DNA from: a virus
Direction: 5' to 3' (one strand)
Length of the DNA: 61,265 bases
IMG/VR virus record: IMGVR_UViG_3300037420_000518
Span: 1 to 61,265 of that record
The notes under the pieces were generated by a model. That model was not told where the DNA came from. It did not search any database and saw nothing but the letters and a program-made list of their open reading frames with translations. The translations under genes were made by a program, and so were the position numbers. Shown piece by piece: positions 1,369 through 35,310 of this stretch. Within the stretch, counting starts at the first letter, position 1. Each line of letters starts with the position of its first letter.

Positions 1369-1493
1369 TGCAATCGGCGGCGTGGACGGTGACACGCTAA
1401 AAGAACAGTGCTGCTCTTTCTGGTTCGATCCCAGACTTGAACTTGGTAGGCGTGAAGGAAGTACACAGAAGGTTCAATTCCTTCCCGATTGCA
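1369..1493 (+). ncRNA. Oversize tRNA-like RNA (125 nt) with a 9-bp terminal helix, a D-like arm and two T-arm consensus hairpins, but no canonical anticodon arm
   Basis: Terminal helix 1369-1377/1485-1493. D-like arm GCGTG-GACGGTGA-CACGC at 1380-1397. T-arm GAAGG-TTCAATT-CCTTC at 1468-1484. Extra T-like arm TCTGG-TTCGATC-CCAGA at 1419-1435. Confidence 0.55.
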
Positions 1494-1524
1494 CCCATTT
1501 TCAACCCAATACAGACACACAAGC

Positions 1525-1752
1525 ATGACCCGTCAAGAATCACTGAAAACCGCTATCGCTGAAGCGAACCGATTTATAAAAAAGGCCAGGGAAGCCTTGA
1601 ATGTAGAAGATAACCGAAAAACAGCAGAATCCGAAGGCAAGTACGTGTATCACTACGATAAGCCTGGAGATTCGTGCAAATTCGCTTCCGCCGAGCGTTC
1701 CAGTATGGATTTAACGCGATGCTTAGCCCAGTTGAGGAAATCAGAGAGGTAA
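1525..1752 (+). CDS. Hypothetical protein (75 aa)
   Basis: The internal ATG at 1525 was chosen because the longer ORF (1489) would overlap the tRNA-like element. The protein is helical and charged. Confidence 0.55.
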   Translation: MTRQESLKTAIAEANRFIKKAREALNVEDNRKTAESEGKYVYHYDKPGDSCKFASAERSSMDLTRCLAQLRKSER

Positions 1753-3300: not shown

Positions 3301-3708
3301 ATGCCTACTGATCTCCCAACAATAAAGAAGTGCCTTGAAACGCAAGACAACCGTATCACGGCGCACCCGATGTTCATCGTTCAACAGAAGCGCAAGATTT
3401 CCTCTGAGAATAGCGACGAATACGAGTGGGTGGATGATGAATGGTGTGAAGTCGATGCGAAAAAGTCCGCTGCCCTGGATAGATACTACGAGCGTTTCGA
3501 CCGTGCTCCAGAGGGCTACACGCGCCATCAAATCGCCATCATCTGGGAATTCGTAACCGCCTGCTTCACGGAACAGGGGTGCAAGGATTACATCGCTTGC
3601 AATGGTCACAACCTCCATGAGCCGCGCATCTACGTTGAGAGCGCCCACAGAAACGCCGAGTGGCAATTCTTGCGTGCTCACTTGATGGGAATTGAATTCC
3701 CTGAATAA
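3301..3708 (+). CDS. Hypothetical protein (135 aa)
   Basis: Co-oriented ORF with globular composition. The 159-aa minus-strand ORF over it is Arg/Leu-rich shadow. Confidence 0.6.
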   Translation: MPTDLPTIKKCLETQDNRITAHPMFIVQQKRKISSENSDEYEWVDDEWCEVDAKKSAALDRYYERFDRAPEGYTRHQIAIIWEFVTACFTEQGCKDYIACNGHNLHEPRIYVESAHRNAEWQFLRAHLMGIEFPE

Positions 3709-3754
3709 CAACCCGCCGCTAAGATGTGGTAAACCCTGACAAGTAGAATCCCTT

Positions 3755-4027
3755 ATGGCAAAAGCACTGTTTAATTTTCACTTTGACTGCGGCAGAGGCG
3801 GATCGCTTTACGGTACGTTCATTGCGGACACCGCTGACGTAGAAAAGCTGATTAAAAATGAGACCGAAATCTACTTCGGTGAAGTCCTTGGAAAGCACTC
3901 CGACATTTCAGGGCCAGTGGAGGAATGCGACATTACGAAAGTTACCGAAGACCAAGAACTAATTGAAAAGCTCCAAAGTCTCGGCATCGCGAATGGAATC
4001 AATCCTTTCGACTATTTGAACGGGTAA
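3755..4027 (+). CDS. Hypothetical acidic protein (90 aa)
   Basis: Co-oriented ORF rich in Glu and Asp. Confidence 0.55.
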   Translation: MAKALFNFHFDCGRGGSLYGTFIADTADVEKLIKNETEIYFGEVLGKHSDISGPVEECDITKVTEDQELIEKLQSLGIANGINPFDYLNG

Positions 4028-4189: not shown

Positions 4190-4230
4190 TCGGCAACACT
4201 TCGTTTAACGCGGAAAAATCAGACGTACTT

Positions 4231-5043
4231 ATGAGTAACAAAATCCAAGTTTTTTCAAGCGGTGGAGGAACTCAATCAGCAGCCATTGCCGCTTTAATCA
4301 TTCAGGGTCGCCTTCCAAAGCCTGACTTCGTTGTGATCGCAGACACCGGGCGCGAGCGACAAACGACTTGGGACTACCTGGATTCGGTGATACGACCAGG
4401 ACTTAAGAAGGTTGGCCTTGAGGTTCACCGTATTGGTCCTGAATGGCAGAGCATTCCGGCGCATGGAAAAAACTGGAAGAGCCACAATAACGCAACAATC
4501 ATTCTTCCTGGGTACACGTCGCAGACCGGCTCAACTGGAAAGTTTAGCGGGTTCTGCTCTGCGCGGTGGAAGCAGGAGACGCGTGACAGATACCTTTCAA
4601 AGCAACTCGGTCTAACGCGTTCGATGTTCCGCTCATGGATAGGATTTTCGGTGGATGAGCCGAGACGATATTTGCGAATGATGAACGGTGAGGAATACAA
4701 GAAGGGTCAATTATGGTTTCCGTTAGTAGAAGGTGTTCGCCTGCGCCGATTCGAGTCCATTGATGTAGTCAAAAAGATGGGATGGCCGGAACCGCCTCGT
4801 TCGGCCTGCTATATGTGCCCGAACCAAGGCGACGATGAATGGATAGACCTAAAAGCCAATTCACCGCAAGAGTTCCAAATGGCTGTTGAGTTGGAGCGCC
4901 AGGTTCGACAGGAGGACCGGTTTTTCTGGTTCCATCCATCATGCGTCCCGCTGGATCAGGTAGACTTCACAAAGCCTACAGAGAGCAGCCAGATCGAGCT
5001 TTTCAACCGCAGGGAATGCAGTTCAGGAGTATGCTTTGTATGA
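4231..5043 (+). CDS. PP-loop ATP-pyrophosphatase family enzyme (PAPS-reductase-like)
   Basis: 270 aa. The N-terminal 'VFSSGGGTQSAAIAAL' matches the SGGxDS-type PP-loop. A C-terminal 'CYMCPNQ' Cys pair is present. Confidence 0.6.
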   Translation: MSNKIQVFSSGGGTQSAAIAALIIQGRLPKPDFVVIADTGRERQTTWDYLDSVIRPGLKKVGLEVHRIGPEWQSIPAHGKNWKSHNNATIILPGYTSQTGSTGKFSGFCSARWKQETRDRYLSKQLGLTRSMFRSWIGFSVDEPRRYLRMMNGEEYKKGQLWFPLVEGVRLRRFESIDVVKKMGWPEPPRSACYMCPNQGDDEWIDLKANSPQEFQMAVELERQVRQEDRFFWFHPSCVPLDQVDFTKPTESSQIELFNRRECSSGVCFV

Positions 5044-16124: not shown

Positions 16125-16258
16125 TGCGACCTGTGGCGAAATTGGTAGACGCACCTCTCGATAGAGGATTCACGAAACGGAGTAGAACGAGTAAGCCGTT
16201 AGGGCTGAGGGACGAAACGAAGTAGCGAATGATGGTTCAAGCCCATCCAGGTATCGCA
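16125..16258 (+). ncRNA. Oversize tRNA-like RNA (134 nt). It has type-II (Leu-like) 5' half and a consensus T-arm, but a 78-nt core without an anticodon loop
   Basis: GCGACCTGT-GGCGAAATTGGTAGACGC at 16126-16152. T-arm GATGG-TTCAAGC-CCATC at 16231-16247. Terminal helix 16125-16133/16248-16258 has a 2-nt bulge. The core has a CCTCT-CGAT-AGAGG mini-hairpin. Confidence 0.6.
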
Positions 16259-34962: not shown

Positions 34963-35310
34963 AAAGAAAAGCCCCACCAGTACCTACATTAGTCTCTGAC
35001 GCTCTAGACGTCAGGCTTCGGTCTGGCAGGGCTGTTGTGAGCGCCCAATATTAACGACCTTTGGTTGTCAGGCAGGAACGGTCATGCTGCCGCGCTCGTT
35101 TACCGGAAAGGCTTTCGTTTTCCCATACGTCAGGTTTTCCAGTGACAGCCAGGTAATGTTATTCCCGGAACCTGCATCCCTCACGCATTGCCTGTTAAGG
35201 CTTCCGATGCATGAACCGTACAACAGCCAGAACATCACAGTAAAGCCCAAACTTATCAGGCAACGCTATTGACTACGCCTAGGGGTTTGCCGCATACTGC
35301 GTCATCCAAT

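What the first reader, a model, noticed from the sequence alone, without database searches (positions are those of the whole stretch)
1369..1493. Oversize tRNA-like RNA with two consensus T-arms and no anticodon arm
A 125-nt element lies between the SSB-like gene and the next ORF. It is closed by a perfect 9-bp helix (TGCAATCGG 1369-1377 / CCGATTGCA 1485-1493). A textbook T-arm (GAAGG-TTCAATT-CCTTC, 1468-1484) abuts the 3' strand of that helix, just as the T-arm abuts the acceptor stem in tRNA. A D-like arm (GCGTG-GACGGTGA-CACGC, 1380-1397) follows the 5' strand after 2 nt. The core is about 47 nt too long for a tRNA. It contains a second perfect T-arm consensus (TCTGG-TTCGATC-CCAGA, 1419-1435) and an imperfect hairpin (1400-1419). 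I tested every 5-bp-stem/7-nt-loop register from 1398 to 1467. The only hit is the internal T-like arm, whose loop has U rather than a purine at position 37. So there is no ordinary anticodon arm. The element could be a non-decoding tRNA mimic (a decoy for tRNA-targeting enzymes or a chargeable scaffold). It could also be a tRNA with an unusual insertion or intron, or a decayed tRNA.
Basis: partly seen in the sequence, partly recalled or inferred. Interest (0 to 1): 0.72.

Follow-up and report, generated by a model that had tools for sequence, protein, structure and literature searches.

The report
Conserved phage tRNA-like RNA, two T-loops
A phage carries a 125-130-nt RNA gene that copies the top half of a tRNA but has, where the anticodon arm should be, a branched arm holding a second T-loop hairpin; an unrelated phage has a matching copy with compensating base changes, so it is probably a working non-decoding tRNA mimic of a kind not yet catalogued.

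Summary
Window 1369-1497 (+) has a perfect 9-bp terminal helix (10 bp with G1368-C1494), a D-like arm, a consensus T-arm abutting the 3' strand, and a second internal consensus T-arm. ARAGORN at default settings and Rfam 15 call nothing there. It is not an intron-bearing tRNA. The best ARAGORN score after any internal excision is 102.2. Controls with a shuffled middle score 106.5 +/- 4.2, and 71 of 80 reach the real value. It is not a copy of a host tRNA 3' end.

A covariance model of the element found a homolog in an unrelated 150-kb IMG/VR phage contig (L074 5269-5396, 37.5 bits, E about 6e-8). Unpaired motifs are conserved: AAAGAACA, CUU, CUUGGU and CGUGAA. Twelve of 32 pairs change on both sides and stay paired, in all five helices. 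These include the internal T-like hairpin and a long-range helix (P3).

So this is a conserved structured RNA. It is a tRNA-like cloverleaf whose anticodon arm is replaced by a branched arm with a second T-loop. The T-hairpin / YUGGU..GUGAA / T-hairpin core recurs in two further phage loci.

Function is inferred only: most likely a non-decoding tRNA top-half mimic. Only two full-length members are known.

The parts
1369..1377 (+). 5' strand of the acceptor-like terminal helix (G1368 can add a tenth pair).
   Evidence: Perfect complement of 1485-1493. Pair probabilities are about 1.0. In homolog L074 two pairs change on both sides (A-U to U-A, U-A to G-C) and two to three are mismatched.
1379..1398 (+). 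D-like arm: 6-bp stem GGCGUG/CACGCU and 8-nt loop GACGGUGA with a GG.
   Evidence: Pair probabilities 0.9-1.0. Two pairs change on both sides against L074 (G-C to A-U twice). RNAalifold recovers the arm independently.
1399..1407 (+). Conserved unpaired linker AAAAGAACA. It sits where a tRNA has one nucleotide (position 26).
   Evidence: L074 has UAAAGAACA at the same place.
1408..1415 (+). 5' strand of long-range helix P3 (GUG-c-UGCU).
   Evidence: Pairs with 1460-1466 in the minimum-free-energy fold. In L074 the equivalent segments GAUCGGGUA/UACCUGAUC form 9 contiguous pairs (p = 0.0004-0.008 against shuffles). The window helix alone is weak (p = 0.13). Three pairs change on both sides.
1416..1418 (+). 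Conserved CUU between P3 and the internal T-like hairpin.
   Evidence: Identical in L074.
1419..1435 (+). Internal T-arm-like hairpin T1 (UCUGG-UUCGAUC-CCAGA).
   Evidence: Conserved with covarying stem in L074, L021 and L144. Three of 5 pairs change on both sides and 95% of cells are paired. RNAalifold recovers it.
1436..1459 (+). Internal joining region with the conserved block CUUGGUAGGCGUGAA (1442-1456). It contains a second GG and a copy of the D-stem 5' strand (GGCGUG, 1449-1454).
Evidence: CUUGGU and CGUGAA are identical in L074. YUGGU..GUGAAGG is also present in L021 and L144.
1460..1466 (+). 3' strand of long-range helix P3 (AGUA-CAC).
   Evidence: See the entry for 1408-1415.
1468..1484 (+). 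Terminal T-arm T2 (GAAGG-UUCAAUU-CCUUC). It abuts the acceptor 3' strand.
   Evidence: Three of 5 pairs change on both sides across four sequences and 100% of cells are paired.
1485..1493 (+). 3' strand of the acceptor-like terminal helix.
1494..1497 (+). CCCA tail. It reads either as discriminator C plus CCA, or as pair C1494-G1368 plus CCA. It is not conserved.
   Evidence: L074 has UUCAC at this place.

Best explanation
The element is a gene for a conserved, non-decoding tRNA-like RNA of about 125-130 nt, transcribed with the phage early genes on the + strand.

Shown here:
- It folds as a cloverleaf-like four-way junction.
- The first arm is an acceptor-like helix stacked on a consensus T-arm (8/5 or 9/5 pairs, against 7/5 in a normal tRNA).
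- The second is a 6-bp D-like arm whose loop carries GG.
- In place of the anticodon arm and variable loop there is a conserved 9-nt linker (AAAGAACA).
- That linker is followed by a long arm (P3). P3 encloses a second consensus T-loop hairpin and a conserved purine-rich strand (CUUGGU..CGUGAA) that has its own GG.

Inferred:
- The acceptor/T-arm stack and the D-loop/T-loop elbow make the transcript a substrate for the host tRNA-processing enzymes (RNase P, 3' trimming, CCA-adding enzyme, TrmA/TruB). These would cut it out of the operon transcript and stabilise it.
- Because it has no anticodon arm it cannot decode.
- It would act through its tRNA-like top half plus the extra T-loop/GG module, binding and so occupying or redirecting a host or phage factor that recognises tRNA acceptor ends or elbows.
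- That makes it a tRNA mimic or decoy rather than an adaptor.
For: The features are real and non-random.

No tRNA, tmRNA or Rfam family matches.

A single-sequence covariance model found L074 5269-5396 at 37.5 bits, E about 6e-8, among about 1 Mb of double-T-arm phage loci. The flanking genes are unrelated.

Comparison with L074:
- 90.5% of cells are paired.
- 12 of 32 pairs change on both sides, against 0-3 for slid controls and 0 of 500 shuffles. Every helix has at least 2 such pairs.
- RNAalifold independently recovers the acceptor, the D arm, the internal T hairpin and the T arm, with 9 compensatory pairs.
- P3 in L074 is 9 contiguous pairs, p = 0.0004-0.008.
- The unpaired blocks AAAGAACA, CUU, CUUGGU and CGUGAA are identical while the stems differ.

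Both T hairpins covary across four loci: 97.5% of cells are paired and 6 of 10 pairs change on both sides.

The excision scan gives no hidden anticodon arm. True insertion-bearing phage tRNAs do pass it.

No promoter-like site lies between the upstream gene and the element, and no terminator-like site was found on the + strand. This is consistent with co-transcription and processing.
Against: - Only two full-length members are known, so covariation rests on one pairwise comparison.
- The alignment was fitted to a structure derived from the window sequence.
- The window's own P3 is not significant (p = 0.13).
- The minimum-free-energy fold z-scores are weak: -1.5 for the window and -0.7 for L074.
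- The encoded CCA is not conserved, and L074's acceptor has two to three mismatches.
- The 13-15-bp acceptor/T stack differs from the 12 bp that tRNA enzymes measure.
- Canonical U8 and A14 are absent, so processing by tRNA enzymes is an assumption.
- No expression data exist and no partner protein has been identified.
- A competing pairing of the D 3' strand with 1449-1454 is also conserved (alignment; note).
Confidence: 0.55

Rival explanations
1. It is a cis-acting element of the early operon transcript. One version is a tRNA-like 'punctuation' site where RNase P or RNase Z cuts the polycistronic mRNA, uncoupling the stability of upstream and downstream genes. The other is a conformational switch in which the D 3' strand pairs either with the D 5' strand or with its downstream copy, controlling the gene that starts at 1525.
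For: - The element lies between same-strand genes. No promoter-like site lies between the upstream gene and the element, and no + strand terminator-like site was found.
- It ends 28 nt before an ATG that has no Shine-Dalgarno sequence.
- The hexamer GGCGUG occurs twice (1379-1384 and 1449-1454).
- The repeat follows the D stem in L074 (GACAUG/GACGUG), so two mutually exclusive helices are both kept (alignment; note).
Against: - The flanking genes are unrelated in the two phages.
- The downstream ORF has no homolog anywhere, so nothing ties the element to a regulated gene.
- A mere cleavage site would not need a conserved second T-loop and conserved unpaired motifs.
- The alternative helix rests on one three-way change.
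Confidence: 0.2
2. It is a tRNA gene (for example Thr-GGU) interrupted by a short insertion of about 45 nt that carries a T-arm-like hairpin. This would resemble the short insertions seen in other phage tRNA genes and the 'enigmatic introns' of Lak megaphages. The insertion would be removed to give a decoding tRNA.
For: - ARAGORN at 80% threshold in intron mode proposes Thr(GGU) with a 45-nt insert at 1398-1442 and anticodon stem CACGC/GCGUG.
- Canonical phage tRNAs with 44-nt T-arm-bearing inserts exist: L116 and L141.
- Lak phage tRNA introns are reported (PMC6784885).
- The CACGC/GCGUG pairing is largely kept in L074 (alignment; note).
Against: - The best score after any excision is 102.2, against 106.5 +/- 4.2 for shuffled middles (71 of 80 at least as high). 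L116 and L141 score 121.5 and 119.0, above their controls.
- The model sacrifices the perfect, covarying D arm for a 3-bp one.
- The putative anticodon loop differs in L074 (CUUGGUG or UCUUGGU, without a consistent U33/purine-37 reading).
- The insert would sit at 31/32, and no bacterial mechanism is known for removing it.
Confidence: 0.08
3. It is a non-functional relic: a rearranged or chimeric tRNA pseudogene made by recombination between tRNA genes at their conserved T-loops.
For: - Double-T-arm elements that ARAGORN does not call are common in phage tRNA arrays. Thirty-six of 125 sites in one IMG/VR scan have a helix enclosing both T-arms, and they are heterogeneous.
- The window phage has no other tRNA.
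- Relatives of the neighbouring gene lack the element.
Against: - A homolog in an unrelated phage keeps five helices through 12 double changes and keeps unpaired motifs.
- The terminal helix is perfect over 9-10 bp.
- A relic would not show stems that vary while the loops stay fixed.
Confidence: 0.12
4. It is a phage attachment site or a captured fragment of a host tRNA or tmRNA gene.
For: Phage attP sites often carry the T-arm and 3' acceptor strand of a host tRNA (established knowledge).
Against: - No integrase was found among the ORFs scanned.
- The 21-mer covering the T-loop, 3' T-stem and acceptor 3' strand has one match in 185,579 species genomes. That match lies outside any tRNA gene and reads like coding sequence.
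- The element has both acceptor strands.
- The ARAGORN tmRNA search is negative even at 70% threshold.
Confidence: 0.02

Closest known systems
Bacteriophage T4 species 1 RNA (rnaC, 139 nt), a small stable RNA of the T4 tRNA cluster
   Same: It is a phage-encoded, oversize (about 140 nt), non-decoding RNA. A consensus T-arm (CCGGG-UUCGAAU-CCCGG) abuts a terminal helix formed by its 5' and 3' ends. No function is given in the record; to my knowledge it remains unknown.
   Different: There is no sequence or model similarity: the family model R3 gives no match at E <= 0.01 on the T4 region. rnaC has no second T-loop hairpin and no clear D arm. It sits inside a tRNA array, whereas the window phage has no tRNA.
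Canonical and non-canonical tRNAs (including bacterial tRNA-Sec 8/5 and allo-tRNAs 8/4 and 9/3; PMC5389517)
   Same: It has an acceptor helix, a D arm with GG, and a T-arm with loop UUCAAUU closed by G-C and abutting the acceptor 3' strand. Like tRNA-Sec it has a 13-bp acceptor/T stack (in the 8/5 reading) and a 6-bp D stem.
   Different: There is no anticodon arm. A conserved 9-nt linker replaces position 26, and only 1-4 nt separate the long arm from the T stem. It is 125-130 nt long. U8 and A14 are absent. It is not called by ARAGORN or Rfam.
tmRNA tRNA-like domain
   Same: A tRNA top half (acceptor plus T-arm plus a GG-containing D-loop analogue) is joined to a long helix that leaves the core where the anticodon stem would be.
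   Different: It has no G3-U70 pair, and no tmRNA (tag reading frame included) is detected. At about 130 nt it is shorter than a typical tmRNA of 260-400 nt (from my own knowledge). The ARAGORN tmRNA search is negative and there is no Rfam tmRNA hit.
Bacterial Y-RNA-like YrlA (tRNA-mimicking module; PMC4201824)
   Same: It is a non-decoding bacterial or phage RNA of about 100-130 nt containing T-arm, D-arm and acceptor-like helices.
   Different: As I recall the published YrlA structure, the RNA ends form the Ro60-binding stem on the anticodon side and the acceptor-like stem is closed by a loop. Here the ends form the acceptor-like helix. No rsr/Ro60 homolog was seen among the ORFs scanned, and there is no Rfam hit.
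Phage tRNA genes with short T-arm-bearing insertions (L116, L141; Lak megaphage 'enigmatic introns', PMC6784885)
   Same: They have the same overall size (116-121 nt between acceptor ends) and an internal T-arm-like hairpin about 51-54 nt from the 5' end.
   Different: Those are canonical tRNAs once 44 nt are removed from the anticodon loop (ARAGORN 119-121.5). The window element is not (102.2, below its controls). Their inserts share GGGUA before the hairpin, which is absent here.

Membership tests
tRNA (decoding) | Anticodon arm: 5-bp stem and 7-nt loop with U33 and purine 37, one nucleotide after the D stem. | tested here: not met
   ARAGORN at default settings makes no call. The only 5-bp/7-nt hairpin in the core is the T-like arm, which has U at position 37. 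A conserved 9-nt linker follows the D arm.
tRNA (decoding) | 7/5 acceptor/T-stem stack (12 bp) and a length of about 73-93 nt. | tested here: not met
   The stack is 8/5 to 10/5 and the length is 125-129 nt.
tRNA (decoding) | T-loop consensus with a G53-C61 closing pair, and GG in the D-loop. | tested here: met
   GAAGG-UUCAAUU-CCUUC and D-loop GACGGUGA. Both are conserved in L074.
tRNA (decoding) | Match to the Rfam tRNA covariance model. | tested here: not met
   There is no tRNA hit even at E <= 10 on 261 nt or on 1.1 kb.
Intron- or insertion-bearing tRNA | Removing one contiguous segment yields a cloverleaf that scores above chance. | tested here: not met
   The best of 1830 excisions scores 102.2. 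Shuffled-middle controls score 106.5 +/- 4.2, and 71 of 80 reach the real value. Positive controls L116 and L141 pass.
tmRNA | tRNA-like domain with G3-U70, a tag reading frame and pseudoknots. | tested here: not met
   ARAGORN -m is negative at default and at 70% threshold. The acceptor pair 3-70 is C-G or A-U. There is no Rfam tmRNA hit.
YrlA / bacterial Y RNA | A Ro60-binding stem formed by the RNA ends, and an adjacent rsr gene. | tested here: not met
   The ends form an acceptor-like helix abutting the T-arm. No Ro60-like hit was found among the ORFs scanned. There is no Rfam hit. Not every small ORF was scanned.
T4 species 1 RNA (rnaC) | Sequence or structure homology to rnaC. | tested here: not met
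   Model R3 gives no match at E <= 0.01 in T4 69500-73500. blastn of the element against 50,697 phage records gives only three chance-level hits.
Functional structured RNA (general) | Homologs in unrelated genomes keep the helices through compensatory changes. | tested here: met
   Against L074, 12 of 32 pairs change on both sides and slid controls give 0-3. RNAalifold finds 9 compensatory pairs. T1 and T2 covary across 4 loci. Caveat: there are only 2 full-length members.
tRNA mimic processed by tRNA enzymes | Cleavage by RNase P, CCA addition, and T54/Psi55 modification. | not testable with these tools
   This needs in-vitro cleavage or RNA-seq end mapping.

The most novel reading that the evidence does not exclude
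This is a new class of phage tRNA mimic with two T-loop/GG 'elbows' on one tRNA-like scaffold. The canonical D-loop/T-loop elbow is joined by a second one, formed by the internal T-loop hairpin and the conserved CUUGGU strand. The RNA is cut out by RNase P. It then acts as a decoy or sponge for a host factor that reads tRNA acceptor ends or elbows, for example an anti-phage toxin that modifies or cleaves tRNA 3' ends. Alternatively it toggles between two conserved folds as a switch.
Probability: 0.2. Interest if true: 0.82.

Novelty: new variant of a known kind. Interest (0 to 1): 0.6.

Why it matters
Phage-encoded tRNAs are now known to counter tRNA-targeting defences, but non-decoding tRNA mimics in DNA phages are almost unstudied. 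As far as I know, the function of the T4 species 1 RNA is still unknown decades after it was sequenced.

This work gives a concrete, conserved example with a defined architecture: a tRNA top half plus a nested second T-loop module with fixed unpaired motifs. It also provides a covariance model that recovers a second member. The element is short enough to delete, probe and pull down.

If it acts as a decoy or a switch, that would show a new way for phages to exploit the tRNA-recognition machinery. If it proves to be only a processing signal, it still documents a tRNA-like punctuation element in a phage operon.

Tried and rejected
1. Standard detectors. ARAGORN on the window found 0 genes. Rfam at gathering and at E <= 10 found nothing at the element.

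2. ARAGORN with relaxed thresholds and intron mode gave a weak Thr(GGU) with a 45-nt insert. I rejected it with the excision scan and shuffled controls, and validated that scan on L116 and L141.

3. Close relatives of the phage.
- The exact upstream proteins occur only on one identical Logan contig.
- Homologs of the upstream 107-aa protein (at most 55% identity) have the next gene immediately after it, with no element.
- The downstream 75-aa ORF has no homolog.
- The search for related loci in IMG/VR found nothing with either neighbour.

4. Similarity searches with blastn.
- The window element against phages and plasmids gave nothing real.
- The L074 element against phages gave nothing real.

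5. Exact-pattern scans.
- The 3' 26-mer in IMG/VR had 0 matches.
- The 3' 21-mer in 185,579 genomes had one chance hit outside any tRNA gene. The attP or host-copy idea is rejected.
- A double-T-arm pattern in JGI metagenomes matched 12 loci, none homologous.

6. Motif patterns built from the two homologs, searched in IMG/VR, returned only L074 as a true member.

7. Two-sequence model R3 on about 2.5 Mb of fetched loci found no further full-length member. The best other hits (L131, L169, L133, L144, L075, L019; at most 33.5 bits) lack the conserved unpaired motifs.

8. T4 rnaC and rnaD were inspected as precedents. rnaC shares the T-arm/terminal-helix layout but is not homologous.

9. No integrase, tRNA-enzyme or Ro60-like protein was seen among the ORFs scanned.

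Full report
**Observation**

Window 1369-1497 (+) lies in a 398-nt stretch that one gene caller left uncalled. That stretch runs from the stop of a 107-aa gene (1036-1359) to the 94-aa gene at 1757; a 75-aa orphan ORF at 1525-1752 lies inside it.

- A perfect 9-bp helix joins 1369-1377 and 1485-1493. It extends to 10 bp with G1368-C1494.
- A D-like arm spans 1379-1398. It has a 6-bp stem, and its loop GACGGUGA carries GG.
- A consensus T-arm at 1468-1484 abuts the 3' strand.
- A second consensus T-arm lies at 1419-1435.
- The 3' strand is followed by CCCA.

In the partition function the terminal helix and the D arm have pair probabilities of about 1.0, and the terminal T-arm 0.64.

A simple descriptor tests whether this could be chance. 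It asks for a T-arm consensus directly followed by a 7-mer complementary to a site 30-150 nt upstream. It matches once in the window. It matched in 3 of 300 dinucleotide shuffles. That is before counting the extra helix length, the D arm and the second T-arm.

The window is a tailed-phage genome. It has a DUF3799 nuclease, a DnaB-like helicase, terminase subunits, a portal protein and a major head protein. It has no tRNA gene, and no integrase was found among the ORFs scanned.

**What it is not**

It is not a recognised RNA.
- ARAGORN at default settings finds no tRNA or tmRNA.
- Rfam 15 finds nothing at the element at the gathering threshold.
- Rfam finds only two short chance matches at E <= 10.

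It is not an intron-bearing tRNA.
- At 80% threshold in intron mode, ARAGORN offers a tRNA-Thr(GGU). That model has an 8-bp acceptor, a 3-bp D arm, an anticodon stem CACGC(1393-1397)/GCGUG(1450-1454) and a 45-nt insert.
- I tested this reading by deleting every segment of 10-75 nt inside 1398-1467 and scoring each product.
- The best product scores 102.2.
- When the same 70 nt are shuffled, the best score averages 106.5 +/- 4.2, and 71 of 80 controls reach the real value.
- Two true phage tRNAs with 44-nt insertions, found in passing (L116 Thr-UGU and L141 Gln-UUG), score 121.5 and 119.0. These exceed their own controls in 30 of 30 and 28 of 30 trials.
- So no excisable segment uncovers an anticodon arm.

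It is not a copy of a host tRNA end. The 21-mer spanning the T-loop, 3' T-stem and acceptor 3' strand occurs once in 185,579 species genomes. That match lies in a Hydrogenophaga stretch that reads like coding sequence, and ARAGORN finds no tRNA in the locus.

**Relatives**

The phage itself has no close relative in the collections.
- Its proteins recur only on one identical Logan contig.
- The nearest homologs of the upstream gene (at most 55% identity) have no gap and no element.
- The downstream ORF is an orphan.
- blastn against phage and plasmid records finds nothing.

Scanning IMG/VR for two T-arm cores 25-50 nt apart showed that such pairs are frequent in phage tRNA arrays.
- Most are a normal tRNA followed by a T-arm mini-element.
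- In a looser scan, 36 of 125 sites have a helix enclosing both T-arms and are not called by ARAGORN. They form a heterogeneous set.

A covariance model built from the window sequence alone then picked one clear homolog from these loci. It is L074 5269-5396, from the 150,744-bp contig IMGVR_UViG_3300022890_000014, at 37.5 bits and E about 6e-8. The next hit scored 24.5 bits. ARAGORN finds no tRNA in that locus. Its flanking proteins are unrelated to those of the window.

**Comparative anatomy**

The two sequences share their unpaired blocks exactly, while the stems differ.
- U/A-AAAGAACA after the D arm.
- CUU before the internal hairpin.
- Both T-loops.
- CUUGGU and CGUGAA between the two T-arms.

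On the model-fitted alignment:
- 90.5% of cells pair.
- 12 of 32 pairs change on both sides.
- Every one of the five helices has at least two such pairs.
- Slid controls give 0-3, and 0 of 500 shuffles reach the observed value.
- RNAalifold, run without the given structure, recovers the acceptor helix, the D arm, the internal T hairpin and the terminal T-arm, with nine compensatory pairs.

A fifth helix, P3, joins the nucleotides right after AAAGAACA to those just before the terminal T-arm.
- In L074 it is nine contiguous pairs (GAUCGGGUA/UACCUGAUC; p = 0.0004-0.008 against shuffles).
- In the window it is GUG-c-UGCU/AGUA-CAC and is weak on its own (p = 0.13).

The core module (T hairpin, YUGGU..GUGAAGG, T hairpin) also occurs in L021 (the same contig as L042) and in L144. 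There it has no tRNA scaffold and sits directly behind tRNA genes. Across the four loci both hairpins covary: 97.5% of cells are paired and 6 of 10 pairs change on both sides.

The CCCA tail is not conserved; L074 has UUCAC. L074's acceptor has two to three mismatches.

**Architecture**

The RNA is a cloverleaf-like four-way junction with these parts.
- An acceptor-like helix stacked on a T-arm (8/5 to 10/5 in the window; 7/6 or 8/5 in L074).
- A 6-bp D arm with GG in its loop.
- A conserved 9-nt single strand where a tRNA has one nucleotide.
- A long arm (P3) that ends 1-4 nt before the T stem. It encloses a second T-loop hairpin plus a conserved strand with its own GG.

No register gives the same anticodon-like loop in both sequences. 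The RNA therefore cannot decode, with or without removal of a segment.

**An unresolved point**

- The D-stem 5' strand is repeated inside the conserved strand. The window has GGCGUG at 1379 and again at 1449.
- L074 has GACAUG and GACGUG at the matching places.
- Both copies can pair with the D 3' strand, and one position changes in all three strands together (alignment; note).
- This suggests either two mutually exclusive folds, or a pseudoknot with P3 whose first loop would be the A-rich linker.
- Two sequences cannot settle this.

**Mechanism**

Shown: this is a conserved structured RNA with a tRNA-like top half, a nested second T-loop module and no anticodon arm. It is carried as an independent unit by two unrelated phages.

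Inferred from what is established about tRNA-processing enzymes:
- The acceptor/T-arm stack and the D/T elbow should recruit RNase P, 3'-end trimming, the CCA-adding enzyme and the T-loop modification enzymes.
- These would release a stable RNA from the operon transcript.
- The RNA would then act by occupying a factor that reads tRNA acceptor ends or elbows.

I put about 0.8 on 'functional structured RNA'. I put about 0.55 on the statement as a whole, that is, a trans-acting non-decoding mimic.

The main rival is a cis-acting processing or switch element (0.2). A relic pseudogene (0.12), an insertion-bearing tRNA (0.08) and an attP or host fragment (0.02) are less likely.

**Comparison with known families**

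- The nearest precedent in layout is the T4 species 1 RNA. It is 139 nt, has a T-arm abutting a terminal helix, and has no stated function in the record. It is not homologous.
- The element shares the tRNA top half with tRNA, tRNA-Sec (13-bp stack, 6-bp D stem) and the tmRNA tRNA-like domain. It fails the defining tests of each.
- As I recall the published structure, YrlA has the opposite end topology.
- No Rfam family covers it.

I rate it a new variant of a known kind (tRNA mimics), with interest 0.6. It is real, conserved and uncatalogued. However, it is known from only two full-length copies and has no functional data.

Noticed in passing
window 34968-35035 (-): A full-length match to the Rfam family DUF3800-VIII RNA (RF03075): 49.9 bits against a gathering score of 40.2. 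It lies in the structural-gene region of the phage.
   Followed up: no
L116 about 4230-4350 (+), L141 (- strand copy), L132 about 3708-3832: These are otherwise canonical phage tRNA genes (Thr-UGU, Gln-UUG). Each has a 44-nt insertion in the anticodon loop, and the insertion contains its own T-arm-like hairpin preceded by GGGUA. Removing the 44 nt gives ARAGORN scores of 121.5 and 119.0. This is reminiscent of the 'enigmatic introns' of Lak megaphage tRNAs (PMC6784885). No splicing mechanism is known in bacteria.
   Followed up: partly
L019, L063, L072, L080, L087, L134, L162 (several copies per locus): This is a family with a constant tRNA-Leu-like scaffold (AGUCAGG-UG-GCGGAAUGGUAGACGC ... 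UACAGGUUCGAAUCCUGU-CCUGACU-A-CAA). Its middle part is hypervariable and about 40-110 nt long. It occurs in the tRNA arrays of large phages. The L019 copies lie outside every ARAGORN call made on that locus; the other loci were not checked.
   Followed up: no
L021 2005-2124 (same contig as L042); L144 6876-6988 (-): The core module (T hairpin, GGACUGGUGUGAAGGGAG, T hairpin, then UGAUA(U/A)G) occurs without an acceptor helix or D arm, directly downstream of a canonical tRNA gene. It looks like a scaffold-free relative of the window element.
   Followed up: partly
L026, L039/L050, L043 and others: In these loci a canonical tRNA is followed within a few nucleotides by a 35-60-nt 'minihelix': a 7-bp acceptor-like helix enclosing only a consensus T-arm. 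Examples are the ones after tRNA-Ala(UGC) in L039, L050 and L043.
   Followed up: no
window 1525-1752 (+): A 75-aa ORF starts 28 nt after the element. It has no Shine-Dalgarno sequence and no homolog among 5.8 billion proteins other than itself. One gene caller did not call it.
   Followed up: partly
window 16231-16247 (+): Another hairpin fits the T-arm consensus (GATGG-TTCAAGC-CCATC). It has no closing helix, and shuffled windows give about as many such hairpins (mean 1.4), so it is probably chance.
   Followed up: no
Metagenome-contig collection: The window's own contig was not returned by a pattern that its sequence fits, although a JGI protein record points to a 61,265-bp contig. That collection therefore does not hold it, and a negative search there is weaker than it looks.
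   Followed up: no
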